Of a stretch of DNA of 64,000 nucleotides, positions 281 through 63,214 are shown piece by piece. This stretch comes from Candidatus Woesearchaeota archaeon (GTDB lineage: Archaea; Nanobdellota; Nanobdellia; Woesearchaeales; JACPBV01): assembly GCA_016180135.1 (NCBI GenBank), contig JACPBV010000004.1, forward strand, positions 26,868 to 90,867, read 5' to 3'. The notes below the pieces were generated by a model. That model saw nothing but the letters and a program-made list of their open reading frames with translations, made no database searches and was not told where the DNA came from. The stretch's first letter is position 1. The number at the start of each line of letters is the position of its first letter. The position numbers were made by a program, and so were the translations under genes.

Positions 281-2002
281 ATGACTCCCATCATCCGCAT
301 AGGCAACGAGCTCCACCCCGTCTCCGGCATAGAAGGCTCCCCGAATGCCGAGATGATATTCCAGCACGCCCTGCTCAACGAAAACGAAAAGAGGGGGGAA
401 AGGGGGAAGGTCTCAGGAGAAAAGATCTTCAGCGATAAAAACCTTGGAGAGAAAACTGATAATTCAAAAATCCCCATGAAGAAATCACGGGAAGATGGAT
501 CCCAGGGAAATAAATCCCAATTTGAGTTTATAATGTTTTCAAGGCCGTTTTCCAAAGAGACAAAGCAGAAATGCCTCAATGATGCGTATGCCTCGGACAG
601 GGAGGTTTTGAACTTCCTCCTGTCCAGCGAAAGGTGGTATGGGCCGATGGTATCCAGCAAGGCCGAAGCCTGGGCTCTTATTCAAAACACCTATTTCATC
701 CCATGGACTTCTTTCGAAAGGCTTTGCTATTGGTTTGTAAAAAAATCATTTTTGAAAAGTTTTTTTTACGGGCTGCTGGCCATAAGCTACCATCGGAGAA
801 CTGCGTCAGCGATCCAAAAGCTCCGTCTCCAAGCTCCTATCATCCACCTGTATAACCGCCCGTTGGCATGGCTGATGAAACCGAAGTTGAAAGGCTGCAG
901 GCCGATTTTTGTTTTGGAGATGCAGAACAGCCATCTCGTGCAGAAGCATAGTATCTTCAAAGGCATCATTCAGAAATTGCTCAACAGTGCTGCTGCTCAG
1001 TTCAAAAAGATAATTTTTGTCAGCGATTTTCTCAGAGATGAGTATAGGGGAGAGTGTAAAGGAGAATGTAAAGGAGAATGTAGGGGAGAGTGTAAAGGAG
1101 AATGTAAGGGAGAGTGTAAGGAAGAGTGTAAAGGAGAATGTAAGGGAGAGTGTAAAACCGAATCTGCAGATGAAAAAATTGAAGAAAGCCGCCACAGCGA
1201 TTGCTCATGCTCACCTCATTTATCCCAATATTCCGTCGCATATAACGGAGTCTCAACAATACATCAGTATTTGGGAGCTCATCCTGCCTTATTGGCAGGA
1301 GATGGCCTGAGCCTCTCGCATTGGAAGTCCTCGCTGTTCCCGCAGTTGAAAAACCTCACTCCAGACACCAGCCTCCGCATCCTCTTCAGCGGAAGGATTG
1401 TGAGGGAAAAAGGCCTCCATATACTTTTGGATGCCCTCCGGCTTCTTGCTGATAGCCGGCAGAAAAGAAATTCGGTAAGGAAGAAGCAGATCCAGAAAAT
1501 AGAGCTGCGCATAGCCGGCTCGCCGTATTTTGGCAGAGAGGGAAGCTCCCCCTATGTTCGGGAAATCCTCCGGAAGATAAAGCAGCTTGAGCTGGAAAAT
1601 ATCAAGATAACCTTTATGGGATTCCTTGACAAATGCTCCCTCTCGAAGGAATACCTTGCGGCAGATATTCTCGTCGTTCCTTCATTATGGGACGAGCCCT
1701 TCGGCAACGTGGTTATCGAGGGGATGTATTTCAAATGCATTGTCGTTGCAGCAAGGAGTGGAGGGATTCCTGAGATACTAGAAAACAAAAAGACAGGATT
1801 CTTGGTCAGCAAAGGAAATGCTTCTGAGCTTTCCCGCCTGCTTGAAAATATCAGCCTGCGAACCCCAAGGGATGATGCCTCCCTTAAAGCCCTGGCCAGA
1901 AACGCAAAAAAGAGCGTTGAGCAGAAATTTCTGATGCAGCACCATTTCAGTGCCGTGATGGATGTTTACAGAGAGATTGTCAAAAATGAAACCTGGCGAT
2001 AG
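281..2002 (+). CDS. glycosyltransferase family 4 (GT-B, GT1-type C-terminal domain) with low-complexity insertions
   Basis: The C-terminal half has the classic GT4 pattern: RILFSGRIVREKGLHILLDAL ... ADILVVPSLWDEPFGNVVIEGMYFKCIVVAARSGGIPEIL..KTGFLV. The N-terminal start is uncertain. Confidence 0.8.
   Translation: MTPIIRIGNELHPVSGIEGSPNAEMIFQHALLNENEKRGERGKVSGEKIFSDKNLGEKTDNSKIPMKKSREDGSQGNKSQFEFIMFSRPFSKETKQKCLNDAYASDREVLNFLLSSERWYGPMVSSKAEAWALIQNTYFIPWTSFERLCYWFVKKSFLKSFFYGLLAISYHRRTASAIQKLRLQAPIIHLYNRPLAWLMKPKLKGCRPIFVLEMQNSHLVQKHSIFKGIIQKLLNSAAAQFKKIIFVSDFLRDEYRGECKGECKGECRGECKGECKGECKEECKGECKGECKTESADEKIEESRHSDCSCSPHLSQYSVAYNGVSTIHQYLGAHPALLAGDGLSLSHWKSSLFPQLKNLTPDTSLRILFSGRIVREKGLHILLDALRLLADSRQKRNSVRKKQIQKIELRIAGSPYFGREGSSPYVREILRKIKQLELENIKITFMGFLDKCSLSKEYLAADILVVPSLWDEPFGNVVIEGMYFKCIVVAARSGGIPEILENKKTGFLVSKGNASELSRLLENISLRTPRDDASLKALARNAKKSVEQKFLMQHHFSAVMDVYREIVKNETWR
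1047..1156 (+). repeat. in-frame 12-nt tandem repeat encoding (G-E-C-K/R)n inside the GT4 gene
   Basis: About 9 units of ggaga(a/g)tgtaa(a/g) translate to RGECKGECKGECRGECKGECKGECKEECKGECKGECK. They lie between the two Rossmann-like halves. Confidence 0.85.
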
Positions 2003-23763: not shown

Positions 23764-23930
23764 GCGGCTCCGTTCAAAATATAGGTTAGCAGCCTAAAGT
23801 AAAAATCATTTGCCCTCTGAATCCAGCTGACAAGGGGGACGCCCCCAACGGGGAATGTCAGCAACTGAAAAATCACTTTGGGATTTTTAAGCTGCTAACC
23901 CGAGCGAAGCGAGATTTTGAACGGAGCCGC
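23764..23930. mobile_element. family-C long-hairpin MITE-like element (167 nt)
   Basis: Terminal inverted repeat gcggctccgttcaaaat / attttgaacggagccgc (17 bp). Inner stems are ggttagcagc/gctgctaacc and gctgaca/tgtcagc. The core is agggggacgcccccaacgggg. An 11-bp direct repeat gcaaaatcagc sits at 23755-23765 and 23929-23939. Confidence 0.7.
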
Positions 23931-24525: not shown

Positions 24526-24714
24526 GTTTGCTGACTCTCCTTTTGATAATCTATACTTACGGAAAAAAATAATTATACAATTGTTGTCCGTTCGTAATAA
24601 GCCAACGACAACTTTTTGTCTAAATATTTGCGTCGTTGGCTATATTATATGCTCAGGAATTATTCCGCAAAGTCTGAACCCTCTTTCAAATTCATCAAAT
24701 AAATTAGCGCTATA

Positions 24715-24829
24715 GAAAATTTCAACAACCTCGGCGAGGCGAGGCTGGGGGTCGCCCCATCGGGGTAGCCGAGCAGGGCAAATTTCCAGAGGAAATTTGA
24801 CCGTCGAGCCATGTGTTGTTGAAATTTTC
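24715..24829 (+). repeat. family-A structured repeat, copy A1 (115 nt)
   Basis: A 15-bp closing stem gaaaatttcaacaac / gttgttgaaattttc encloses ctcggc...gtcgag, a GC hairpin (ggctg-ggggtcgccccatcgggg-tagcc) and the hairpin caaatttcc-aga-ggaaatttg. Confidence 0.75.
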
Positions 24830-24858
24830 GCGCATTGCACCTCATAAGAGGTGTCTTT

Positions 24859-28990: not shown

Positions 28991-29078
28991 GTTCAATTCT
29001 AAACCTAATCTTATCATTTTAGGCTTCATCCCCTGACGTTAGGGAAATGAAGGCTAGCGCACAATAAACGTTTTTTTT

Positions 29079-29230
29079 GAAAATTTCAACAACATCGGCG
29101 AGGCGAGGGAGGGCCGCCCTCCGTCCGCAGACCGGAACGCTGGATTATCCCTCCGTCCGCAGACCGGAACGCTGGATTATCCCTCCGTCCGCAGACCGGA
29201 ACGCTTTTTTTTCCCTCCGTCCGTTTTCTC
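29079..29230 (+). repeat. family-A element, copy A3: 5-prime half only, followed by tandem expansion
   Basis: It starts gaaaatttcaacaacatcggcgaggcgaggg as other A copies do, then runs into 32-nt tandem units. No gttgttgaaattttc 3-prime arm is present. Confidence 0.6.
29117..29223 (+). repeat. perfect 32-nt tandem repeat (ccctccgtccgcagaccggaacgctggattat), 2 full units plus 24-nt and 11-nt partial units
   Basis: Units read directly at 29117-29148, 29149-29180 and 29181-29204, then T8, then ccctccgtccg. Confidence 0.9.
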
Positions 29231-30705: not shown

Positions 30706-32274
30706 ATGGGAATTAACCCTAAGCTCGAAGGGCTTCTTGTAACCCTGCTCTACTTCACCGCTCTTTACTTCTGGACGCTCCCTATCCAGAAAAGCCCTTT
30801 GCCCTACGGTGAGGTCGATGCTGCATCCCACTATGCTGTTGCTGAATTCACCTTATGGCAGGGCCGCTCGATTACCCTCCTGCCCCATTATATCGATGTA
30901 AGATACGGCGACGACAATGTCTACCAAAACCACGTCCTCTGGTATCCCCCGCCGTTCCATACCGGCCTGGCGTTAGGCGGCTTTTTTGGAGCTCCTAATC
31001 AGGGAATCTATATCGCAAATGCGCTCTTCTCAACGCTGATCATCCTGAGCGTTTATTTCCTGATGCGGAATCTCTATGGGATCCTCATCGCATTGCTCTC
31101 CTCTTTTTTCCTCATGTTCTCCATGCGTGACATCCTCACTTTTCTTTGGGGCCAGTGGCCGGAGCGCATGGGCTTTGCGTTTATCCCCCTTGTTCTGTGG
31201 TGCCTGTATGCATACTACTCTTCAATAAAGGAAAAAACGCCGAAGAGCAGCTACCTATACCTCATAGCGGTTTTCCTTGCCTCCGCCCTGTTCATCCATC
31301 CGATGGCCTTCTTCCATGCTCTCGCTGCCATCAGTGTTTTGTCTGTCTTCTTCCTGCTCAGGGAGAAGAGATTTTTTTTCAGCCTCAGGCATATTGTATT
31401 CTCTTCCTTGGTTTTCCTTATCATCATCTCAGTCTTCCCCGACCAGACCCTCAATGTGTTTGCAACCCTCAAGTCCGAGAGGACAGACGAGCCCGGCAAA
31501 GGGGATTTTTCAAGGCTGTTCCGATGGTTCAAAGCCCAGGAAAATGCAGGCGTTCCCGAAGAATACTTCTCTTACCGGGCGATGATCGGCCCCGTATGGA
31601 CAATCCCCATAATCCTCATCGCAGTAATCTTCCTTTTGCTGAGAAGATCTCCCAAAGACCTTGTCATGCTCGCCTGGCTCGTCAGCTTATACATCATGCT
31701 TCATCTTGATTTTATCGGCAAAGGCAGAGTCCACCGCTCACTGTCAGCAACAGCCCATCTTTTTTATCCCTTGATCGTTCTCGGCATATGGTTCTTGCTC
31801 AACTCCATCCCTGTTAAAGGCCGTCTGAAAGCTATCCTGAAATACGGCCTCTTATCGCTCTTCGCAGTTTTCCTGGCGCTCGCAGTCGCCCCTCCTGCCT
31901 TCACAGCATTAAGCTCCTCTTATCAGGGAGTTAACAGGCTCAACCCTTCCCAATACGAAATTGCCCAATGGCTGAAATCAGGCGAAGGCATGGCCATGCT
32001 GCCGGAAACTTCAAGGATTTACCATCTTGGGTCAGTGTCCCTCGCAAAATCAAGATGGCTGTCTATGGCGGGCCACCACGAATTCCTTTTTGAGCCGAAC
32101 AAGTCTCCGAAAGATGCAAACGCATCGCACGTTGCAGTTGACACCTCAGACTTTGCGTTGGCTGGCAGGCAGGACTTAGTCCAGCAGCTTGAAGCGCTCG
32201 AGCGGCAGTCTTTTGCCAACCAAACTTCCCTCTACAATAAAAACGGCATCAGGGTGTATCAAGTTGGAAGCTGA
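30706..32274 (+). CDS. polytopic membrane protein, GT-C-like (putative glycosyltransferase)
   Basis: 522 aa with more than 10 TM segments. The first-loop motif YGEVDAASHYAVAEF parallels those of the ORFs at 4271 and 34243. Confidence 0.45.
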   Translation: MGINPKLEGLLVTLLYFTALYFWTLPIQKSPLPYGEVDAASHYAVAEFTLWQGRSITLLPHYIDVRYGDDNVYQNHVLWYPPPFHTGLALGGFFGAPNQGIYIANALFSTLIILSVYFLMRNLYGILIALLSSFFLMFSMRDILTFLWGQWPERMGFAFIPLVLWCLYAYYSSIKEKTPKSSYLYLIAVFLASALFIHPMAFFHALAAISVLSVFFLLREKRFFFSLRHIVFSSLVFLIIISVFPDQTLNVFATLKSERTDEPGKGDFSRLFRWFKAQENAGVPEEYFSYRAMIGPVWTIPIILIAVIFLLLRRSPKDLVMLAWLVSLYIMLHLDFIGKGRVHRSLSATAHLFYPLIVLGIWFLLNSIPVKGRLKAILKYGLLSLFAVFLALAVAPPAFTALSSSYQGVNRLNPSQYEIAQWLKSGEGMAMLPETSRIYHLGSVSLAKSRWLSMAGHHEFLFEPNKSPKDANASHVAVDTSDFALAGRQDLVQQLEALERQSFANQTSLYNKNGIRVYQVGS

Positions 32275-32305
32275 AACCCTTCATCAGGAAACTGTCAAAA
32301 ATAAG

Positions 32306-32620
32306 GTGGCAGATGCAAAGCTCTTCGGGCTTATCTTTTTATTGATCGCCGTCTTCTCAACGTTCGCCTTTGGAGTTTCCGGCTTTAAAACTATCATGGG
32401 AATAATTTTTGCTTTCTTCCTCCCAGCATACCTTATTCTCAAAAAAAGCGCCTTTTCCGAAAACGAGAAATTATTTTTTTCAATTTTCCTAGGCGCAGTC
32501 CTTTTTCCCGCCTTAATCTATTGGCCTGCCGTCATCATGCCGTTGAAGGCAGCTGTTCCCTTAGTATTTCTGCTTGTCTCAGGAGCGGGATTAATTTTTC
32601 TTCTGAAATCAAAGAAATAG
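32306..32620 (+). CDS. small 3-4 TM membrane protein paired with the upstream GT-C-like gene
   Basis: The ORF-track frame 32189-32620 overlaps the upstream gene by 86 nt. GTG at 32306 is a plausible start, but the start is uncertain. Sequence: ...FLPAYLILKKSAFSENEKLFFSIFLGAVLFPAL.... Confidence 0.4.
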   Translation: MADAKLFGLIFLLIAVFSTFAFGVSGFKTIMGIIFAFFLPAYLILKKSAFSENEKLFFSIFLGAVLFPALIYWPAVIMPLKAAVPLVFLLVSGAGLIFLLKSKK

Positions 32621-32627
32621 TTTCTTC

Positions 32628-32791
32628 GTATTTGTTTAGCATCCTAAGATCGAAACGCTTCTGGGCTTACCGTTGGGTCCGTCGCGGGGGCCGCCCTCCT
32701 TCCCGAAGGGACAGGAACGTTTTTCCACCCCTACGGGGACGCAGGACATCCATATCTCCCGTCGAGCGTTTCGAAGATGCTAAACAAATAC
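32628..32791. mobile_element. family-F long-hairpin MITE-like element (164 nt), related to family B
   Basis: 16-bp perfect inverted repeat gtatttgtttagcatc / gatgctaaacaaatac. Perfect 8-bp flanking duplication gtttcttc (32620-32627, 32792-32799). The core is cacccctacggggacgcagg. Confidence 0.8.
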
Positions 32792-32861
32792 GTTTCTTCA
32801 GGAAAATCAGGAATTTCCCCTCAAAACAAAAAGCCCCAAACCCCCCAATCCGAAAAAAGAA

Positions 32862-33800
32862 TCAGTTTTTCAGCAGCCTTCTGAAATAACTGATTGTCTC
32901 CCGCAGCCCATCATCCAGCTCTACCTTTGGCTCCCATCCAAGCTTCTCTTTTGCCAGGGAGATATCAGGGTTCCTCCTTTCAGGGTCATCTTCAGGCAGC
33001 GGCTTGAAGGAAATCTTTGATGTTGAGCCCGCTAAAGATATTATCTTTTCCGCAAGCTCAAGGATGGTGAGCTCATGGGGATTCCCCAGATTCACAGGGC
33101 CGATAAAATCAATAGTATTGTCCATCATGGTTATCATTCCGTCGACGAGGTCAGCGGCAAAGCAGAAGCTCCTGGTCTGCTTTCCCTTGCCGTAGATGGT
33201 TATCGGCTCATTCCGGAGCGCCTGCACGATGAAGTTAGACACAACCCTCCCGTCATCCATCGCCATGTTTGGCCCGTAGGTATTGAAGATCCTCACGATC
33301 CTGATCGGAATCTTATGCTCACGGTGGTAATCCATCATAAAGGTCTCCGCCACCCTCTTCCCTTCGTCATAGCACGCCCGTGGCCCGAGCATATTGACAT
33401 TGCCCGGGTATTTTTCAGTCTGGGGATGCACAGCAGGGTTCCCATAGACTTCAGATGTTGAAGCCTGCAGTATTTTTGCCCTGCACCTTTTTGCTATCCC
33501 GAGCATATGGAACATCCCTACCGTCGAAGTAAGCAGCGTCTTGATGGGGTCGAACTGGTAATGTTTCGGAGACGCCGGGCATGCCAGATTATAGATCTCA
33601 TCAACTTCCAGAACAATCGGCTGGATAATATCGTGCCTGGCCACCTCAAAATCTTTGTTCCCCATAAGATGGTTGATATTCCTCTGGCTCCCGGTAAAGA
33701 AATTGTCCAGGCAGATGACATGGCTGCCCTTCTTCAGGAGCGCTTCGCAGAGATGGCTGCCGATAAACCCTGCCCCGCCAGTGACCAAGATTGTTTTCAT
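32862..33800 (-). CDS. uxs: UDP-glucuronate decarboxylase (UDP-xylose synthase)
   Basis: [48 protein letters not shown] and YDEGKRVAE are all typical UXS motifs. Confidence 0.9.
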
Positions 33801-38562: not shown

Positions 38563-38631
38563 GATACCCAAACAAGATACCTCAACAAGATACCCAAACA
38601 AGATACCTCAACAAGATACCCAAACAAGATA
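38563..38631 (+). repeat. 13-nt tandem array (gatacccaaacaa / gatacctcaacaa alternating, 5 units plus a partial) starting right after the ArsR stop codon
   Basis: Units read directly. The effective period is 26 nt, about 2.6 copies. Confidence 0.85.
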
Positions 38632-38722
38632 GATGAGTATGATGCACGAGTAATGCGGGAGGTAAGATAAGGTGTATCGGGGTTGCAGGACTGGAAAATA
38701 CAACTATTTTGGAGGAAAAAAC

Positions 38723-43065: not shown

Positions 43066-43184
43066 GAAAATCCCAACAACAAAGGGCTCGACGGTCAAAT
43101 TTTTCTCTGAGAAAAATTTGCCCTGCTCGGGCACCCCGATGGGGCGACCCCCGCCCTCGCCTCGCCGATGTTGTTGGGATTTTC
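43066..43184 (-). repeat. family-A structured repeat, copy A2 (119 nt, inverted orientation)
   Basis: The closing stem is gaaaatcccaacaac / gttgttgggattttc. It differs from other copies by three compensatory pairs. The inner modules are conserved in reverse complement. Confidence 0.75.
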
Positions 43185-45790: not shown

Positions 45791-45812
45791 AGGGGAGGTA
45801 TTTTTCCCAAAA

Positions 45813-45933
45813 GAAAATTTCAACAACATCGGCGAGGCGAGGGCGGGGGTTTGTCCCTTACGGGGTGCCCGAGCAGGGCAAAATTTCCACAGAGGAAATT
45901 TTGACCGTCGAGCCCTTTGTTGTTGAAATTTTC
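45813..45933 (+). repeat. family-A structured repeat, copy A4 (121 nt)
   Basis: Same closing stem as A1. The inner hairpins are gggcg-ggggtttgtcccttacgggg-tgccc and caaaatttcc-acaga-ggaaattttg. Confidence 0.75.
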
Positions 45934-46032
45934 GCACATTGCAACCTAAAACTGCAGTTATGGGGAAGTGCGTTGATTGGGGGACACAATAGGGATTTAC
46001 ATCAATCCCCTTTACAACACCATTCGAGTATT

Positions 46033-47211: not shown

Positions 47212-47502
47212 TTGGCTTCAAAAGAAGGCATGGAGACGGATGTAGACAGAGTTCTTGCTAGTGTCAGGAAGAAGCGTTTGCTGATGGAAGTCGAGGTCAA
47301 GGGCCTCATCGAGAAGAAGGAAGAGGAAATTTCCATCCCCTTAAGCATTTTCTCGGAGAGATTAGGCATGCTTGAGTCTATCGTTCATTATCTCAGGGAT
47401 TCTCATGGGCTTTCTTTTACAGAGATTGCAGGGCATCTAAAGCGGGACTACAAGACAGTCTGGGCGACATATCAGCAGGCAAAGAAAAAGTATAAGCGAT
47501 GA
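47212..47502 (+). CDS. small helix-turn-helix protein (sigma-70 region-4 / LuxR-like HTH), translationally coupled to the giant ORF
   Basis: LGMLESIVHYLRDSHGLSFTEIAGHLKRDYKTVWATYQQAKKK looks like an HTH. The stop overlaps the giant-ORF ATG (ATGA at 47499-47502). The start may be TTG 47212 or ATG 47230. A TATA-like ctttataaac lies at 47181-47190. Confidence 0.55.
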   Translation: MASKEGMETDVDRVLASVRKKRLLMEVEVKGLIEKKEEEISIPLSIFSERLGMLESIVHYLRDSHGLSFTEIAGHLKRDYKTVWATYQQAKKKYKR

Positions 47503-50500
47503 AACAATCCAGCAAAGTTAAGGAAATCAGCGCAGGCATAAGGGAGCTCAGGCTCTCAGGGAAAAATGCCGATAATGCCAGAAAGAGCTATGCAAGGCTG
47601 CTGGAAGCCTTGCTTCAGGAAAAAGAAAAACTGCAGTCTCATCTCAGCAAAGGGATTCTATCAGAGCAGAACTATGATCAGATTCTCCAGGAAAATCTTG
47701 ACGGCAAAACCAGGATGCAATGGATTGCCTATTGTGAAAATATCCTTGGCAGCGCAGATTCCAAAAAACAGCAGTATCGCCGATGGGTCGGAGTTCTTGA
47801 GGACGACATTGGCCGGATTAAACGATCTTTCAGGAAGGGAAGCATCTCCCAGGAAGCATACCATCATCTCCTGAACCAGAAGATTGAGGGAAAAACCAGG
47901 GAAGGATGGATTGTATCCGCAAAAATGGCGTTGTATGGTCTGGAAGAGGGTGAATCCCTGGCGGGCGCTCAGGGAATTTTAAGCCGCAGCGCATCGTCAG
48001 TAATCAGAGCATCAAAATCGCTGCTAGAAGAGAAAAAGGAACTCCTCGTTAACACCGCCCCTATAATATTGATGCTCTTGCTTCTCAGCCTCTCAGCTTT
48101 TTTTATCAGCCCGGCGCACACCGGATTTGCAGTCATAAGCATAGAGAATGGATTTGAGGATTCCTTAAACCTCTCCCTCAACGGGTCATCCTCATTCCTC
48201 TGGGCCCCGGCCAGCCACGGAATGATAACGAACATTGCAGTCAGCGGAAGGCTTTCAAAAGGTGCCGGAGCAAAAATCTACCTCGAAAAGGCCGGCAGGC
48301 TTTATCTGCTCCTTGATACTGAAGCTGGCTTGAAGACAGAAACAGTTTTGCAGGAAATTCCCGGCATTGCTGCTGGAATCAGTTCCCTCCCGCAGCAAAA
48401 GATCCCCCTCACCGGAGAGATTGAAAACCTATCTGTTGCCCTTATCGGCTCAGGGCCAGTTCAATCAGCAAATGATATATTTAAATTCGGCTTGAAGCAA
48501 AGGGCAGGATTAGACAACAGCTCTTCAGTCCCTGATGAGAACTTCTGCGCACTATGGAAAGTGAACAATGTTTCGGCAGAGTGCTATGGAAATGCTGACT
48601 GCTGCAGTTTTGCGGGCCTCGAAGCCAGTGGCTCCTGGAATGATACGTTCTACCTGTATTCCGGAAGATTCAGCGCAAAGAAAGACAATCTCATTGAGCC
48701 AATCCTTATCTCTTACGATGTCAATCTGAGCATCCCGAAGTCCGATATTAGGATTTCCTCCGCAGTTGCGGAAGCCCATTTTGCGGATGAGCTGGAGAGA
48801 TTCAGCCTTGCATGCATGGAAACGTGCAGCGGCCTGGAGTTTAACGAATCGCGATACTCTCTTGTTGTCTCTTTGGCAATTGGCTCGCTCATCCTTGACA
48901 GCATCTCTTACAAAATGGCCGAAAGCTATAACGTATCAGAAAATTCCCCTCTGCTCCAAAAGAACATCTCTAATGTGTCGCTCTACCAAAACGAAAACAT
49001 CACGTTAAGCCTTAATGATTTCTTTGCCGATGCAGACTCCGATGCGCTGGTATACTATGCTTATCCTGCAGAAAATATCAGCTTTTCTTTTTACCAGGGG
49101 AACATCACCGTCATCCCTGATAAGGATTTCCTCGGCAAAGCATCAACATTTTTTACTGCCTCAGACGGCTTTTTTAATGCCACTTCAGGAATAATTGATA
49201 TTGAGGTTGCTGAAAAGCCGCTCCTCCCGGCTCAGGTATCGGTCACCCAAACTCCCATAAAACCCAAGGTAAGGGTCAATGAGCCGGTGAAATGGGTTAC
49301 AAGAGTTAATTCCACCAGGAAAGTCATAAACCTCACGATGAGCCTGGCGCACGGGGCTGAGAACATCTCCGTCAGAGAATTGACTCAGGGCAGCATTGAT
49401 ACCTCAAGAGTCATTGATACATCCAAAGTGATTGATACATCCAAAGTGATTGATACCTCAAGAGTCATTGATACTGCTGGATTCATGAATCTTAAATCAG
49501 TATTTGTCAGCGAGCAGGGCCAGACTAAAAACCTCTCGCTCTATAATGCCGAAAAGTATTTGGCCAGGCTTGAATCCAGGGAGGAGATGCTTATTGAAAC
49601 CAAAAGGGGAAAGATTAAAAATGACCCGACGGAAATTGAAGCTCTGAAATCTCTTAACACCCAATTGCGTGATGTTGAAAACGAGAAAAACCGGATTACA
49701 GGATTTGTTGTTGCCCAAAGAGGGCAGAAAGGCATTATAACCCGATTTTTTGAATGGCTCATCCAATCAGACCTCGTCGGATTTGCCATCCTCAACGCCC
49801 CATTAGCTCCAATCACCACTCCCTCCACTAATCTCATCCCCACCCCCACAACTAATCACGCCACTAACTCCTTCCCCACTCCCTCCACTAATCTCATCCC
49901 CACCCCCACAACTAATCTTGAAGAGCCTGGCGAAAATGCCCATCCCCCAGTATTGACGATTGCCGAGGGGATTAAAGAAGCCGAGATTACTTATTTCACG
50001 GAAGCTCCGGTTGCCGAGGAATTCAATCTGTCAGAGTCAGGCAAGCGCATTATCATCAGCTCAGACATCCACTATGAAAACATTACGGCTTTCACTTACC
50101 TCCCCGGCGAATATGCCTCTTCAGGCATCCATCTGTATTGGATGAAAAACGGCTCAAGGGAAGAGGTAAATTTCACAGCATTTGATGAAAACAATAACGG
50201 CAGGATTGATTATATCGAATGGATCATCCCCTCGTTGTCAAACCAGACATATGATCTCTCCCTCACCATCATCACACTGAAGAGTTATCCTATCATTGGA
50301 AGAAACTGGACGACAGAGTTTAATGTTTCCGGCACAGCAAACCTCACGATCACTGCAGTCAACAGCACAAGTTTTGGCCAGGTCTACGTTGACAATTTCT
50401 CCTCGGAAGACGACCTCTATCTCAGGGAACTGAAATGCGGTAATCTCACCGTATGGAACAACGGCACAAATTATTCATCAGGCAATGTTTTCTTCGTCCT

Positions 50501-53500
50501 CAGCAATGGCACCGAGGCAGCCTGGAGCGAAACATTCGGAAACAGCCTTCCAGTAACTTCCTTAAAAGTTGTTGACTTCAGCTGCAGCAGTTCAGCGTAT
50601 CACATTGTCAAGGTTGAAACCCACGGGGACCATGTCCAGGAATTCACTTTTGGAAATATCACAAAATATGCTTACAATCATGCAGGGGGGACAGCATGCG
50701 GTTCAGACGGCCTCGGCTCAACCTGCCAGGGAGGGGGAAATGCCAGCCTTGACACGTGCATTGATACTGACAGCTCTAACACGCTTGATGGGTCGGATTT
50801 CTGCCATGGCGCTAACCAATGCCTTGATTCCCATATCGGCGCTTCCTGCAACTATGCCACCGGCCCGACATCAGGGCTCTGCGCCTACAACGGTGCAACC
50901 TCTGCAACCTGCTCAAACCTCGTAATCTCCGGGGAGTATGGCACAGGCATAACTGGCGGTTCTTCAGTAAACTTCCACAGCGGCAATGAAAATTCATCAT
51001 GCTCCCCTGCATCAGAGATGATGGTCTGCAATATCTCTACGGGATACAACCCTCAGGGCGGTGATCTCTGCCTCGACTCATCATGCACGGATCCTGCAAG
51101 CGGGATTGTTTCCCTTAACTGCATCGATCAATCCTGCTCAACGTCGGATGTCAGTGATGCGGCAGTATTCGGCGACTGTAATGCCACGGGCGGAGGCTGG
51201 GCCTGTGACAGCAGCCTTGGCTCATCAGGGTTTGCCCAGGACGGGATTTGCTCAGTGACCTCTGGATTTAACACCTATGGGTGCGCAGCTTCCGGATATA
51301 TCTGCAATGCTACCTCGGGCCCTTTTGCCGGAACTATCTTCAAAAATGGCTGCGGTGTTGGCATGGAGTGTTCAGACAACGATCCCTGCGACTCCTCATT
51401 GACAGACGGCAATTTCAATAAGGCAGCAGGCACATGCTCGGGCACAGACTGTGTCGGTGTCGCAGTTGCCAGCATCTATGCATTCAACCACTCTAAAACC
51501 TCGCCGACAAGCCTCTACCTCGTGAACGGCTCAGTGAACTCCTCCGTCATCAACGGAACAAATATAACCCATAATCAGACCTTAAACTTTACCCACCCGA
51601 CGTTTGGCCTTCGGCTCCAGATTATCGCAAACTTCTCAAGCTGGGATGTTGACATTTCCAACCTTACCATTGACGCAAACAACTTCAGCACTGCCGTGAA
51701 TTGGACATTTGTTGACCAGAGAGCTGTCCCCAAGAATCACACGCTCTACGTCCCCAACACCCTCCAGCTTGGCGTGTATGCATGCGGAACAGCAAACAGC
51801 ACAGGGGAAGTTTTCCCAAAATGCCCGAACAGGACGGTCTGGACGGACTCGGAATTGGGGGCAGGCTCGGTCGTCGTAAGGAATGGGCTCGTAGCGTATG
51901 AGCTTTCTAATCGTTACGTTGTCTCCAACCTTTCGGGCTCCGGAATAGGTCAGGGTGTTGCAGAATGCGGAGCGCTAAACCGTGAGAACGTCACCTATAA
52001 CCTCCTTCAGTCAGTCACTGATACTGACACCTGTTTCACAATCTCCGCCAATAATGTTACGCTTGACTGCAACAATTTTTCCATCACTTATGCAACTGCA
52101 GCTAACGGTAATGGCATCACCGTCAGCAATGTAAACAGGACAACGATCAGGAACTGCACCTTCATCAAGACCTCCGGTCAGGGCTCCTCATATGCCGTTC
52201 AGTTGTCTGGAGCAAACAATGCATCCATCAGCAACAGCTCATTCACTGCTGCTTCTTTAATTTCTTACCCGATTTACCTGACTTCATCCTCAAGGACAAA
52301 CCTGATTCAGAACAACAACATCACCGCTTCAGGAGGGAGCCCCGGAATCTATATTGATTCTTCCTCGGGACAGAACATCATCCTTAACAACAACATTACG
52401 ACTGTCGCAGCCTCGGCGCCTGCTGTTTACATCACTGGCTCTTCCAACAACACCCTTGACGGGAACAATATCACCACCGCCGGAAAAGCATCGTTCGGCA
52501 TACAGCTTGATGCCTCATCTTTTAACACAACTATAATCTTTAACAACATTACGACCGAAGGGAACTCATCTCACGCAGTCTATATCCTTGCAGCCTCAAA
52601 CTTTACCAAAGTATTGAAAAATGTAATCATCACAAAAGGATGGACATCATCCGGTATCATGATTTCTGATGCGTCATACAATATGGCCGAGAACAACTCC
52701 CTGGATATCCTCAACAGCACTAACGCAGCCTTTTACATCAACCAAAGCTCGCTTGCAAACAGCTTTTCAAAAAACAATGTGACTTTCTCAAGAGGGGACG
52801 CAATCCATATCATCTATGACCCGAAGCCGACCTCAGATGGGGGGCCTGTCCCGAGGTTCAATAATTTCTCGAACAACACGTTCTCCAATATATCCGGCTT
52901 TGACCTGATGCTCACCCCTATGATAAGTGCTCCCGGAGTTTCCCAGATAAACCTTACCACCCTGATTGACCAGCCCATAAAGAGATACAACTTCACCAAT
53001 TATGGCGGCTTGTTTGCCATAAGGTCATCCGAATTTGGGGAAATCGCTTTTTTCACCGTCATCAACGGCTCAGGAACAAATTTCAGCAATGATATTATCA
53101 TCAAAAATAATTCTATCACAGTTAATGCTTCAGCAGGGAATGGAATATTCAACAGCTCAGCAAACCTTACATTCTTTAACCTAGGGGACAGGGGCTTTGC
53201 CAATCCCGCCATTCTTTACAACGGTGGAACGTGTGATTTAACCACCTCCCCGCTCTGCCTGAACTTTACCGGCCTTACTGCTGCGACGGTCATCTTGAAT
53301 GTTACTCATTTCAGCAATTACAGCATCGGGGGTCAGGTTGATTTAAGCACACCTACTGTCTCTGTCATCTCGCCAACGCACAGGAACTACACGCTAAGGC
53401 AGATCGACTTCAACATTTCCCTGAATGAGGCAGGGAGCGCATGCAAAATGGCATTGGACAGCGAGGGAAATATCACGATGAGCGCTGTAAACAGCTCTTA

Positions 53501-62554: not shown

Positions 62555-62603
62555 AATGCAACCATTCCATCCGGTCTTTGACGGGGGGGTCGGATTATTT
62601 TGA
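62555..62603 (+). repeat. internally deleted family-D derivative (D4), abutting A5
   Basis: aatgcaaccattccatccggtctttgacgggggggtcggattattttga joins the D 5-prime end (aatgcaaatattccaccagtctttgac) directly to the D 3-prime end (gacggggggtggtcggatttcttttga). Confidence 0.5.
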
Positions 62604-62608
62604 AAAAA

Positions 62609-62844
62609 GAAAATTTCAACAACATTGGCGAGGCGAGGGTGGGGCCGCCCTCCGTTGCGAAGCAACCGGAACGCAGGATTATTCCTCCGTCCGCAGACCG
62701 GAACGCTTTTCCCCCCCATCGGGGTGCCCGAGCAGGGCAAAATTTTCGCGGAGAAACCTCCGAGCGGTAGCGAGCGAGGCACAAAAAACCCTAAAGGGTT
62801 TTTTCGTGAATTTGACCGTCGAGCCCTTCGTTGTTGAAATTTTC
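62609..62844 (+). repeat. family-A structured repeat, copy A5 (236 nt, expanded)
   Basis: It has the canonical closing stem. Two copies of the ccctcc-hairpin-ggaacgc submodule are inserted in the GC hairpin, and the AT hairpin is enlarged. Confidence 0.7.
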
Positions 62845-62935
62845 TGCGCAATGCAGCTTATAAAGAACCCACAAAACCTGTTTTATTTAACCGTCTTTTT
62901 CAGAAAGCTTTAAAACAATTCTTTGACTTATGCCT

Positions 62936-63214
62936 GGCGGGAAGGCTAGGCCGGGATGCTAGTGCCACCCTGTCACCTGAAACGCACTTCAGCAGGGGCC
63001 GAAGCTTTGCAAGCGGCATTTTGCTTTGCTGGTGGTCTTTGCCCGTACGTCGAAGCTCTGTCCTTTGGGATTGCCTGTTCAGTGAACCTGGTCAGGCCCG
63101 GAAGGGAGCAGCCATAAGCTGGATGGATGATGCTCAAGGGGTAGCGGAGTGGAGGAAAGGCAGAGGCAGCCATCATCAGGGTAGATTGTCCATTGCGGGG
63201 CATGCTTTCCCGCT
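62936..63214 (+). ncRNA. ffs: signal recognition particle RNA (archaeal-type 7S / SRP RNA)
   Basis: The helix-8 motif ggtcaggcccggaagggagcagccataag lies at 63089-63118. The terminal helix gcgggaagg (62937-62945) pairs with ctttcccgc (63205-63213), including one G-U. A length of about 280 nt fits the archaeal long form. The ends are approximate. Confidence 0.8.

What the first reader, a model, noticed from the sequence alone, without database searches (positions are those of the whole stretch)
32620..32799. Family F: related hairpin element with a different terminal repeat, inserted at a stop codon with a perfect 8-bp duplication
- The 16-bp perfect inverted repeat is gtatttgtttagcatc / gatgctaaacaaatac. 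It has the same gtatNtNttNagc pattern as family B.
- The flanking 8-mers gtttcttc are identical on both sides.
- The left copy begins at the final G of the TAG stop of the 32306-32620 ORF.
- The interior contains the same core hairpin (cacccctacggggacgcagg). It also contains the ccgccctcc-hairpin-aggaacg submodule seen in family A copies A3 and A5.

The target-site duplication length is the same as family B, but the ends differ. This suggests one transposition mechanism serving several sub-families.
Basis: seen in the sequence. Interest (0 to 1): 0.7.

Follow-up and report, generated by a model that had tools for sequence, protein, structure and literature searches.

The report
Small mobile hairpin element (MITE)
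This is one copy of a small non-coding jumping-gene remnant (a MITE) that landed just after a gene's stop codon in a groundwater Woesearchaeota genome, duplicating 8 bases of its target; it is an ordinary kind of element, but a previously undescribed family with an unusually well-conserved folded core.

Summary
A 164-bp element (32628-32791) has perfect 16-nt terminal inverted repeats. It is flanked by a perfect 8-bp direct repeat, GTTTCTTC, whose left copy starts at the last base of a TAG stop codon.

The source is a Candidatus Woesearchaeota (DPANN) MAG. A metagenome scan recovered 45 loci carrying the same family.
- Of 30 complete copies, 12 have a perfect direct repeat of exactly 8 bp. The chance rate is about 0.07%.
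- Targets are A/T-rich and usually lie close to gene ends.
- Short-read contigs of this same locus all break inside the element.

It is therefore a multi-copy MITE. Families B and F, a 'G' type and an 'H' type share one architecture: a long stem and a G-run/C-run core hairpin, with 8-bp (H: 8-9 bp) duplications. Eleven or twelve base pairs show compensatory changes.

It is present in 0, 1, 2 or 4 tandem copies in the core loop and is shared with family A. This closely parallels pneumococcal BOX elements.

I found no autonomous transposase, so the mobilising enzyme is inferred. Neighbouring copies are always co-oriented, which I cannot explain.

Verdict: a new member of a known kind, of moderate interest.

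The parts
32620..32627 (.). Left copy of the 8-bp target-site duplication, GTTTCTTC. Its first base is the G of the TAG stop codon at 32618-32620.
32628..32643 (+). Left terminal inverted repeat, GTATTTGTTTAGCATC.
   Evidence: These columns are invariant or nearly so in 19 aligned copies.
32644..32649 (+). 6-nt bulge (CTAAGA) present only on the left arm. It makes the two ends asymmetric and so defines the element's orientation.
32650..32659 (+). Inner stem P2, 5' arm: TCGAAACGCT. It pairs with 32765-32774.
   Evidence: pair I9. Compensatory changes at alignment columns 29-31/108-110.
32677..32686 (+). 5' strands of stems P3 (GTCC) and P4 (GCG), which enclose the core.
   Evidence: All six varying pairs show compensatory changes.
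32687..32694 (+). G-run (GGGG) and the CCGC loop start of the core hairpin.
32695..32727 (+). One 33-bp hairpin unit, CCTCC-TTCCC-GAA-GGGAC-AGGAAC-GTTTTTCCA. It sits in the loop of the core hairpin and is absent from the 131-bp basic form.
32728..32738 (+). Core hairpin CCCC-TAC-GGGG.
   Evidence: C-G to U-A compensatory changes at two pairs.
32740..32747 (+). 3' strands of P4 (CGC) and P3 (GGAC).
32765..32774 (+). Inner stem P2, 3' arm: AGCGTTTCGA.
32776..32791 (+). Right terminal inverted repeat, GATGCTAAACAAATAC.
32792..32799 (.). Right copy of the 8-bp target-site duplication, GTTTCTTC.
32264..32620 (+). Upstream flanking gene: a small predicted membrane protein with no Pfam match. Its stop codon abuts the insertion and remains intact.
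32862..33800 (-). Convergent flanking gene: an SDR/NAD-dependent epimerase, annotated 'SDR family oxidoreductase'. Its stop codon is 70 bp from the element.

Best explanation
[quoted passage not shown] It is a 164-bp non-coding, non-autonomous DNA transposon in a Candidatus Woesearchaeota genome.

The proposed mechanism is as follows. A transposase supplied in trans recognised the two 16-bp terminal inverted repeats. It made cuts staggered by 8 bp in an A/T-rich target (GTTTCTTC) immediately after the stop codon of a small membrane-protein gene. It joined the element ends there, and repair of the gaps produced the two 8-bp copies. Because the target is duplicated, the stop codon survived intact.

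The element belongs to a superfamily comprising F, B and related 'G' and 'H' types. Family A shares the core but has different arms. The shared architecture is a long terminal stem and a short G-run/C-run core hairpin. The loop of that hairpin tolerates insertions, including a 32-33-bp hairpin unit that varies in tandem copy number, most likely by slippage or unequal exchange.

Shown here: the inverted repeats, the exact 8-bp duplications in many independent copies, multi-copy dispersal, the intergenic A/T-rich targets, and the conserved fold.

Inferred: that the enzyme is a DDE-type transposase acting in trans, and why the fold is conserved.
For: **Anatomy.** Searches show perfect 16-nt inverted repeats, a perfect 8-bp direct repeat and a very stable fold. 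No ORF of plausible coding value lies inside the element.

**Copy number.**
- An exact-pattern scan of metagenome contigs returned 45 loci, 30 of them from one metagenome. One locus, L155, is a chance match inside a coding gene.
- Five short-read contigs that encode the identical flanking proteins all end 23-72 nt inside the element, as expected for a repeat.

**Duplications.**
- 12 of 30 complete copies have a perfect direct repeat of exactly 8 bp, and 4 more match at 6 of 8. In slid controls 0.07% are perfect.
- Some copies without a duplication have their missing 8-mer partner on another contig: L124-L136 and L142-L152.
- The duplicated 8-mers all differ except GAAAAAAC, which was hit twice at different loci. 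They are 78% A+T.

**Location.** Flanking genes are archaeal housekeeping genes, including MCM, TFIIB, CCA-adding enzyme and exosome RNase PH. 13 of 30 copies lie within 30 bp of a stop codon.

**Relatedness.**
- F aligns with B.
- The F-only covariance model finds the B copies, a new type at 23784-23900, and copies in two other archaeal contigs, L044 and L070.
- Duplications in these relatives: B 27689 perfect 8 bp; B 21004 7/8; G in L044 7/8; H 8-9 bp.

**Host and precedent.** The host identification is. An automated census has reported a Woesearchaeal genome with 105 MITEs per Mb (PMC11602168).
Against: - **No partner.** I found no autonomous element with matching ends. There are no transposase domains in 29 window proteins. 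None appeared among the top-listed families for 58 flanking proteins.
- **Search design.** My metagenome pattern required MITE-interior sequence, so it could not have captured an IS that shares only the terminal repeat.
- **No empty site.** I recovered no allele of this locus without the element, so mobility rests on the duplications alone.
- **Copies without duplications.** 14 of 30 copies show no recognisable duplication.
- **Conserved interior.** The interior, not only the ends, is conserved and covaries. Families with different termini share the core. A transposase that reads only the ends would not require this.
- **Co-orientation.** Neighbouring copies are co-oriented in 8 of 8 comparisons. 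Random insertion does not predict this.
Confidence: 0.8

Rival explanations
1. The element is mobile, but its conserved core is a functional structured RNA or a protein-binding DNA hairpin that the host or the element uses. Possible roles are 3'-end transcript stabilisation, termination, or processing between convergent genes. On this view the insertion is retained because of that function. This adds to the MITE explanation rather than replacing it.
For: - 11-12 base pairs carry compensatory changes. 96% of cells are paired, against 35-45% when partners are slid, and no shuffle reaches the covariation score.
- The core is shared by families with different termini.
- Insertions are tolerated only at one loop.
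- Copies are enriched just downstream of stop codons.
- Precedents exist: BOX, ERIC and Correia elements affect transcripts (PMC3049150).
Against: - Orientation relative to the nearest gene 3' end is 10 same to 6 opposite, so there is no clear bias.
- G-U cells (about 11) and A-C cells (about 8) are similar in number, so nothing marks one transcribed strand.
- There is no Rfam match.
- Compensatory changes in long palindromes can arise by template switching without selection.
- Master-copy amplification inflates cell counts.
- No expression data were available.
Confidence: 0.25
2. The elements are mobilised by an enzyme that recognises the folded hairpin rather than the terminal sequence. This could be coupled to replication on single-stranded lagging-strand DNA. 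It would be a new route that still leaves 8-bp duplications.
For: - Termini differ between families: GTATTTG..., GTATGTA..., GCGGCTCC..., GAAAATTTC.... The fold, the core and the 8-9-bp duplication persist.
- Both arms change together, including a symmetric roughly 21-bp stem extension in B.
- Co-orientation is strict: 5 of 5 in the window and 4 of 4 two-copy loci.
- In all loci of at least 5.7 kb the model strand is the C-rich strand.
Against: - Fixed-length duplications with terminal inverted repeats are the classic signature of DDE transposases.
- The known hairpin-dependent single-strand transposons (IS200/IS605) make no duplications and have no terminal inverted repeats.
- The GC-skew correlation is not significant over all loci (14 versus 8).
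- Family-specific ends are just as well explained by several related transposases or by master copies.
Confidence: 0.08
3. It is a derivative of a single-strand HUH-transposon system, either an IS200/IS605-type palindrome-associated element or a REP/RAYT-type repeat.
For: It is a strongly hairpin-forming, multi-copy intergenic repeat with an orientation bias.
Against: Those elements lack terminal inverted repeats and do not duplicate their target. Here there are 16-nt terminal inverted repeats and exact 8-bp duplications of variable sequence.
Confidence: 0.02
4. It is a locus-specific palindrome, such as a bidirectional terminator between convergent genes, or an assembly artefact. On this view it is not a mobile repeat.
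For: It lies between convergent genes and forms a long hairpin next to a T-rich run.
Against: - More than 40 unrelated loci carry near-identical ends and variable 8-bp duplications.
- The same sequence is present in three independent read sets.
Confidence: 0.01

Closest known systems
Prokaryotic MITEs, type II (only the terminal repeats relate to an IS). Examples: Sulfolobus SM elements, Correia elements, Nezha.
   Same: Small size (129-297 bp). Non-coding. Terminal inverted repeats. Fixed-length target-site duplication. Multi-copy. Intergenic with A/T-rich targets. Tightly base-paired fold. These are the definitions given in PMC10969869 and PMC3049150.
   Different: No cognate IS has been identified. 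The interior is conserved by compensatory change and is shared among families with different ends. The host is a DPANN archaeon, for which only an automated count has been published (PMC11602168).
BOX elements of Streptococcus pneumoniae and S. suis (boxA-boxB(n)-boxC).
   Same: Both have a modular build. Two terminal modules form a stem, and a central hairpin unit occurs in a variable number of tandem copies: 0, 1, 2 or 4 here, 0 to several boxB there. The unit folds independently of the rest. In S. suis, two families with different terminal modules surround the same boxB, just as families A and F share the same 32-bp unit (PMC3049150).
   Different: There is no sequence relationship, and the domain of life differs. 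The paper found no clear evidence of duplications in the regions flanking insertions and no readily comparable empty site, whereas F has crisp 8-bp ones. The unit is 32-33 bp, against about 45 bp.
IS families that make 8-bp duplications: IS66/ISBst12 (ends GTAA), ISL3, IS6, IS256, IS1595, and the ISH1 group of IS5.
   Same: The duplication length is 8 bp. The element ends begin GTA, as I recall IS66-family ends do. This is from memory and is a lead only.
   Different: I could make no sequence comparison with any of these.
IS200/IS605-derived palindromic elements and REP sequences.
   Same: Hairpin-forming intergenic repeats with strand or orientation biases.
   Different: They have no terminal inverted repeats and make no target duplication. 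F has both.

Membership tests
MITE (miniature inverted-repeat transposable element) | Small size (tens to a few hundred bp) with no transposase coding capacity | tested here: met
   164 bp here and 129-297 bp in 30 copies. The only ORF across it is a spurious read-through frame.
MITE (miniature inverted-repeat transposable element) | Terminal inverted repeats | tested here: met
   A perfect 16-nt repeat. The end columns are invariant or nearly so across 19 aligned copies.
MITE (miniature inverted-repeat transposable element) | Target-site duplication of fixed length and variable sequence | tested here: met
   12 of 30 copies are perfect at exactly 8 bp and none at 9-12 bp. The control rate is 0.07%. 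There are 11 distinct 8-mers, plus partners found across contigs.
MITE (miniature inverted-repeat transposable element) | Multiple dispersed copies | tested here: met
   45 metagenome loci (one a chance match), a copy in another archaeal genome contig (L044), and contigs of this locus that break inside the element. Only one F copy lies in this 64-kb window, so copy number in this particular genome is inferred.
MITE (miniature inverted-repeat transposable element) | A cognate autonomous IS with matching ends that supplies the transposase | tested here: inconclusive
   None in the window or in flanks of other copies.
MITE (miniature inverted-repeat transposable element) | Demonstrated mobility (filled versus empty alleles) | tested here: inconclusive
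   All contigs recovered for this locus carry the element. No empty allele was available.
BOX-type modular repeats | Terminal modules plus a central unit in variable tandem number | tested here: met
   0, 1, 2 or 4 units at one loop position. This is a resemblance in architecture only.
BOX-type modular repeats | Sequence homology to boxA/boxB/boxC | not tested
   I compared nothing with BOX sequences. The element is not filed as a BOX element.
IS200/IS605-derived palindromic elements / REP | No terminal inverted repeats and no target duplication; insertion next to a fixed short motif | tested here: not met
   Terminal inverted repeats and variable 8-bp duplications are present.
Any Rfam RNA family | Match to a curated covariance model | tested here: not met
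   Only SRP RNA in the whole window. Nothing credible at E up to 10 across 32560-32860.

The most novel reading that the evidence does not exclude
The conserved, covarying hairpin core and the strict co-orientation of neighbouring copies mean these elements are not ordinary passengers recognised by their ends. On this reading they are mobilised, or retained, through their folded single-stranded form in a replication-strand-specific way. The enzyme recognises structure while still making 8-bp staggered insertions. This combination has not been described for any transposon family, and here it would be operating in reduced DPANN genomes that may lack their own transposase.
Probability: 0.1. Interest if true: 0.7.

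Novelty: new member of a known kind. Interest (0 to 1): 0.36.

Why it matters
DPANN archaea have very small genomes, yet this 64-kb window carries about ten such elements. That fits the one published automated count of roughly 105 MITEs per Mb in a Woesearchaeal genome.

A characterised family gives three things:
- **Assembly and annotation.** It marks assembly breakpoints and sources of chimeric contigs in groundwater metagenomes. It also provides a covariance model to annotate them.
- **Mobile-DNA traffic.** It is a handle for tracing which transposase, and which organism (symbiont, host or virus), moves DNA in these communities.
- **Structure of such repeats.** The shared folded core and BOX-like unit array show that the modular design of bacterial interspersed repeats has an archaeal counterpart.

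If the orientation bias holds in closed genomes, it would also say something about how insertion is coupled to replication in archaea.

Tried and rejected
1. **Genome-collection scan.** I used the gapped pattern GTATNTNTTNAGCN{0,25}ATCCTAA. BLAST of the elements against those loci salvaged two true hits, L044 and L070. The remaining loci served as a negative control.
2. **Viral contig scans.** Four scans with F, B and A patterns gave no hits.
3. **Plasmid and phage collections.** BLAST of the element found nothing.
4. **Rfam.** Nothing at gathering or permissive thresholds.
5. **Autonomous partner.**
   - Pfam on 29 window proteins found glycosylation, cell-surface and housekeeping genes only.
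   - Pfam on 58 ORFs flanking other copies listed no transposase among the families shown.
   - A 2.1-kb pair of terminal-repeat-like 13-mers in L127 encloses a Fur-like regulator and an unknown protein and has no duplication. I rejected it as chance.
   - L155 is a chance match inside a coding gene.
6. **Empty-site search.** Exact-protein look-ups of all three flanking genes returned only contigs that end inside the element.
7. **Strand-specific RNA.** Orientation relative to the nearest gene end is 10 to 6, and G-U versus A-C cell counts are about equal. There is no support for a single transcribed strand.
8. **GC skew versus orientation.** All 8 loci of at least 5.7 kb agree in sign, but only three of them have |z| of 2 or more and two are the same locus. 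Over all loci with significant skew the count is 14 to 8, which is inconclusive.
9. **Literature.** Nothing describes these elements. Supplementary files of the MITE census paper are not held, and the archaeal IS review PMC1847376 is not held.

Full report
**1. The observation**

- GTATTTGTTTAGCATC at 32628-32643 is perfectly complementary to 32776-32791. The repeat finder reports 17 nt because the flanking C and G also pair.
- GTTTCTTC occurs on both sides, at 32620-32627 and 32792-32799.
- The left copy starts at the G of the TAG at 32618-32620. This TAG ends an ORF that is also called as a 118-aa gene on an independent assembly.
- A second inverted repeat lies just inside the first: TCGAAACGCT at 32650-32659 against 32765-32774.
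- The 180-nt stretch folds at -74 to -78 kcal/mol, about six standard deviations below shuffles.
- The end pattern GTATNTNTTNAGC is strongly over-represented in the window and marks the ends of the F and B copies.
- The core CCCCTACGGGGACGCAGG recurs in a B copy.

The element sits in the 241-bp spacer between two convergent genes. One encodes a small membrane protein with no Pfam match. The other is an SDR/epimerase gene at 32862-33800.

**2. Source organism and context**

Exact protein look-ups identify the source as a Candidatus Woesearchaeota archaeon MAG, with locus tag HYU14 and a contig of 117,852 bp. An archaeal SRP RNA lies at 62939-63211.

The window is a glycosylation and cell-surface gene cluster plus housekeeping genes. 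None of the 29 proteins scanned has a transposase domain.

**3. Is it a repeat?**

- Five short-read contigs (Logan) encode flanking proteins identical to the window's. All of them end 23-72 nt inside the element, as expected where a repeat breaks a de Bruijn graph.
- My first collection scan was badly designed and returned mostly chance matches. BLAST against those loci still found an F copy and a related copy in an 'archaeon nzgw58' contig (L044). It also found a B copy in another Woesearchaeota contig (L070).
- A specific pattern run against metagenome contigs returned 45 loci, 30 of them from one metagenome. Many are cut at contig ends. One locus, L155, is a chance hit inside a gene.
- Genes flanking these copies are archaeal housekeeping genes: MCM, TFIIB, CCA-adding enzyme, exosome RNase PH and V-ATPase.

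**4. Census of duplications and targets**

I could delimit 30 complete copies.
- 12 have a perfect direct repeat of exactly 8 bp and 4 more match at 6 of 8. None is perfect at 9-12 bp.
- In 1,530 slid controls, 0.07% were perfect.
- The 8-mers all differ, except GAAAAAAC, which was used at two unrelated loci. They are 78% A+T in a genome of about 48% G+C.
- For some copies lacking a duplication, the complementary 8-mer sits on a different contig: L124/L136 and L142/L152. This points to recombinants or chimeric assemblies across the repeat.
- 13 of 30 copies lie within 30 bp of a stop codon.
- In three of the twelve perfect cases (window, L122, L153), the duplication begins exactly at the last base of a stop codon.

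Neither is met.

**5. Architecture and relatives**

Nineteen basic copies of about 131 bp align along their whole length. The parts, in order:
- the 16-bp terminal stem;
- a 6-nt bulge found only on the left arm;
- a 9-bp inner stem;
- two variable stretches;
- a central stem (P3 and P4) enclosing G-run / loop / CCCC-TAC-GGGG.

The consensus fold has 36 pairs. Compensatory changes occur at 10 pairs in the RNAalifold consensus and at 11-12 in the two named structures. 96% of cells are paired, against 35-45% when partners are slid. No shuffle reaches the observed covariation score.

The CCCC-TAC-GGGG hairpin shows true C-G to U-A exchanges. The alternative G-run/C-run pairing is kept only through G-U.

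A covariance model built from these F copies finds the following:
- the window copy (107 bits);
- all three B copies;
- a previously unlisted type at 23764-23930;
- copies in L044 and L070.

B differs from F mainly by a symmetric roughly 21-bp extension of both arms.

Duplications in the relatives:

| Copy | Duplication |
|---|---|
| B 27689 | perfect 8 bp (GAAAAATC) |
| B 21004 | 7 of 8 |
| 'G' copy in L044 | 7 of 8 |
| 23764 type ('H') | 8-9 bp (CAAAATCAG) |

**6. The 'submodule'**

The window copy is 33 bp longer than the basic form. The extra piece (32695-32727) is a hairpin unit, CCTCC-stem-GAA-stem-(C/A)GGAAC-about 10 nt. It is inserted in the loop of the core hairpin.

Other F copies carry 0, 1, 2 or 4 such units in tandem at exactly this position. 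Still others carry unrelated hairpins there.

The unit occurs nowhere outside such loops in the sequences I hold. It is shared with family A, as three tandem units at 29118-29202 and two at 62649-62704. Family A has different arms but the same G-run/C-run core.

The order of unit subtypes is the same in A and F arrays: a GTTGC-stem unit first, then GTCC-stem units.

This is the design of pneumococcal BOX elements, boxA-boxB(n)-boxC. In S. suis, two families with different terminal modules surround the same boxB (PMC3049150).

**7. Mechanism**

The anatomy fits a non-autonomous DNA transposon mobilised in trans. It has terminal inverted repeats and exact fixed-length duplications of variable, A/T-rich sequence. 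It has many dispersed copies and no coding capacity. MITE definitions are in PMC10969869 and PMC3049150.

The 8-bp stagger and end recognition point to a DDE-type transposase. This step is inferred. IS families that make 8-bp duplications include IS66/ISBst12, ISL3, IS6, IS256 and IS1595. That list and the 'GTA' ends of IS66 come from memory and were not tested.

Because the target is duplicated, insertion at the stop codon left the upstream gene intact. The gene-end bias is most simply explained by A/T-rich tracts after genes plus loss of insertions that disrupt genes.

Unit number probably changes by slippage or unequal exchange, as proposed for boxB.

**8. What does not fit neatly**

- I found no autonomous partner in the window, in flanks, in viral contigs, or in plasmid and phage collections. 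My metagenome pattern required interior sequence, so this absence is weak evidence.
- The interior is conserved by compensatory change and shared across families with different ends. An end-reading transposase would not need this. Possible explanations are selection on an RNA or DNA hairpin, template-switch 'self-correction' of palindromes, or amplification from a few master copies.
- Neighbouring copies are always co-oriented. All 5 are on + in the window. L129, L161, L164 and L044 each hold two copies in the same orientation. Gene direction does not explain this.
- Orientation tracks the C-rich strand in all loci of at least 5.7 kb, but not significantly overall.

**9. Comparison and novelty**

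It meets the testable defining features of a MITE. The cognate IS and an empty site remain open.

It works like a BOX-type modular repeat but is not related to BOX in sequence, as far as tested. It is not an IS200/IS605- or REP-type element, because those make no duplications.

MITE richness in a Woesearchaeal genome has been noted only as a number in an automated census (PMC11602168). I found no description of this family.

I therefore class it as a new member of a known kind, of moderate interest. There is a small chance that the conserved fold and the orientation bias point to something mechanistically new.

Noticed in passing
window 23764-23930: A further hairpin element, which I call 'H', that the finding does not list. 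Its outer inverted repeat is GCGGCTCCGTTCAAAAT / ATTTTGAACGGAGCCGC. Its inner sequence is F/G-like (GGTTAGCAGC...), its core is GGGGGACGCCCCCAACGGGG, and it is flanked by CAAAATCAG (an 8-9-bp duplication). The F-only covariance model finds it at 58.9 bits.
   Followed up: partly
window 15691, 21004, 23764, 27689, 32628; loci L129, L161, L164, L044: Neighbouring copies are always in the same orientation: 5 of 5 in the window and 4 of 4 two-copy loci. This is independent of the direction of flanking genes. The window has uniformly negative GC skew. A replication-strand bias is possible.
   Followed up: partly
window 29099-29208 and 62649-62704: Family A copies carry the same 32-bp hairpin unit as F, in tandem (x3 and x2), in the loop of the same G-run/C-run core. 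The order of unit subtypes matches that in F arrays from metagenomes. The copy at 29068-29230 appears truncated on its right side.
   Followed up: partly
window 24704-24850, 43066-43184 (-), 45802-45950, 62598-62860: Family A right flanks share GCGCATTGCA / GCACATTGCA / TGCGCAATGCAGC beyond the apparent GAAAATTTCAACAAC inverted repeat. The true family A boundaries are therefore probably wider than the repeat suggests, and I could not read its duplications.
   Followed up: no
window TSD 32620-32627; L122, L153 (also L149, L123): In 3 of the 12 copies with a perfect duplication, the duplicated 8-mer starts exactly at the last base of a stop codon. Four of the twelve 8-mers have the form G-N6-C. 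This may be a weak target consensus or only a composition effect.
   Followed up: partly
L162 161-218: A 58-bp mini-derivative consisting only of the terminal stem and the TCGAAA inner stem. The whole core is deleted and there is no recognisable duplication.
   Followed up: no
L044 3847-4036: A 190-bp relative, which I call 'G', in an 'archaeon nzgw58' contig. Its ends are GTAGTTGTTTAGCAGC / GCTGCTAAACAAATAC, it has the same core, and its flanks are CCTCTTT(G/A).
   Followed up: partly
L124/L136 and L142/L152: The 8-mer flanking one end of an element on one contig is the duplication partner of an end on another contig. Some metagenome contigs are therefore chimeric or recombinant across this repeat.
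   Followed up: partly
window 47499-62465: A single ORF of 4,988 aa with internal repeats, for example at 49395-49474, 49813-49917, 56961-59173 and 59947-60025. It resembles the giant surface proteins described in DPANN genomes (from memory; not checked here). I did not analyse it.
   Followed up: no
window 1028-1183 and 38563-38640: Short-period tandem repeats. A 12-bp unit (GAGTGTAAAGGA-like) occurs about 12 times inside the N-terminal part of the glycosyltransferase ORF 281-2002. A 13-bp unit (GATACCCAAACAA) occurs about 6 times in a non-coding stretch upstream of the P-type ATPase gene.
   Followed up: no
window 62598-63211: A family A element lies immediately upstream of the SRP RNA gene (62939-63211).
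   Followed up: no
whole window: About ten hairpin elements (F x1, B x3, H x1, A x5) lie in 64 kb, or roughly 150 per Mb. This is of the order of the 105 MITEs per Mb reported for a Woesearchaeal genome in PMC11602168. No transposase gene is in the window.
   Followed up: yes
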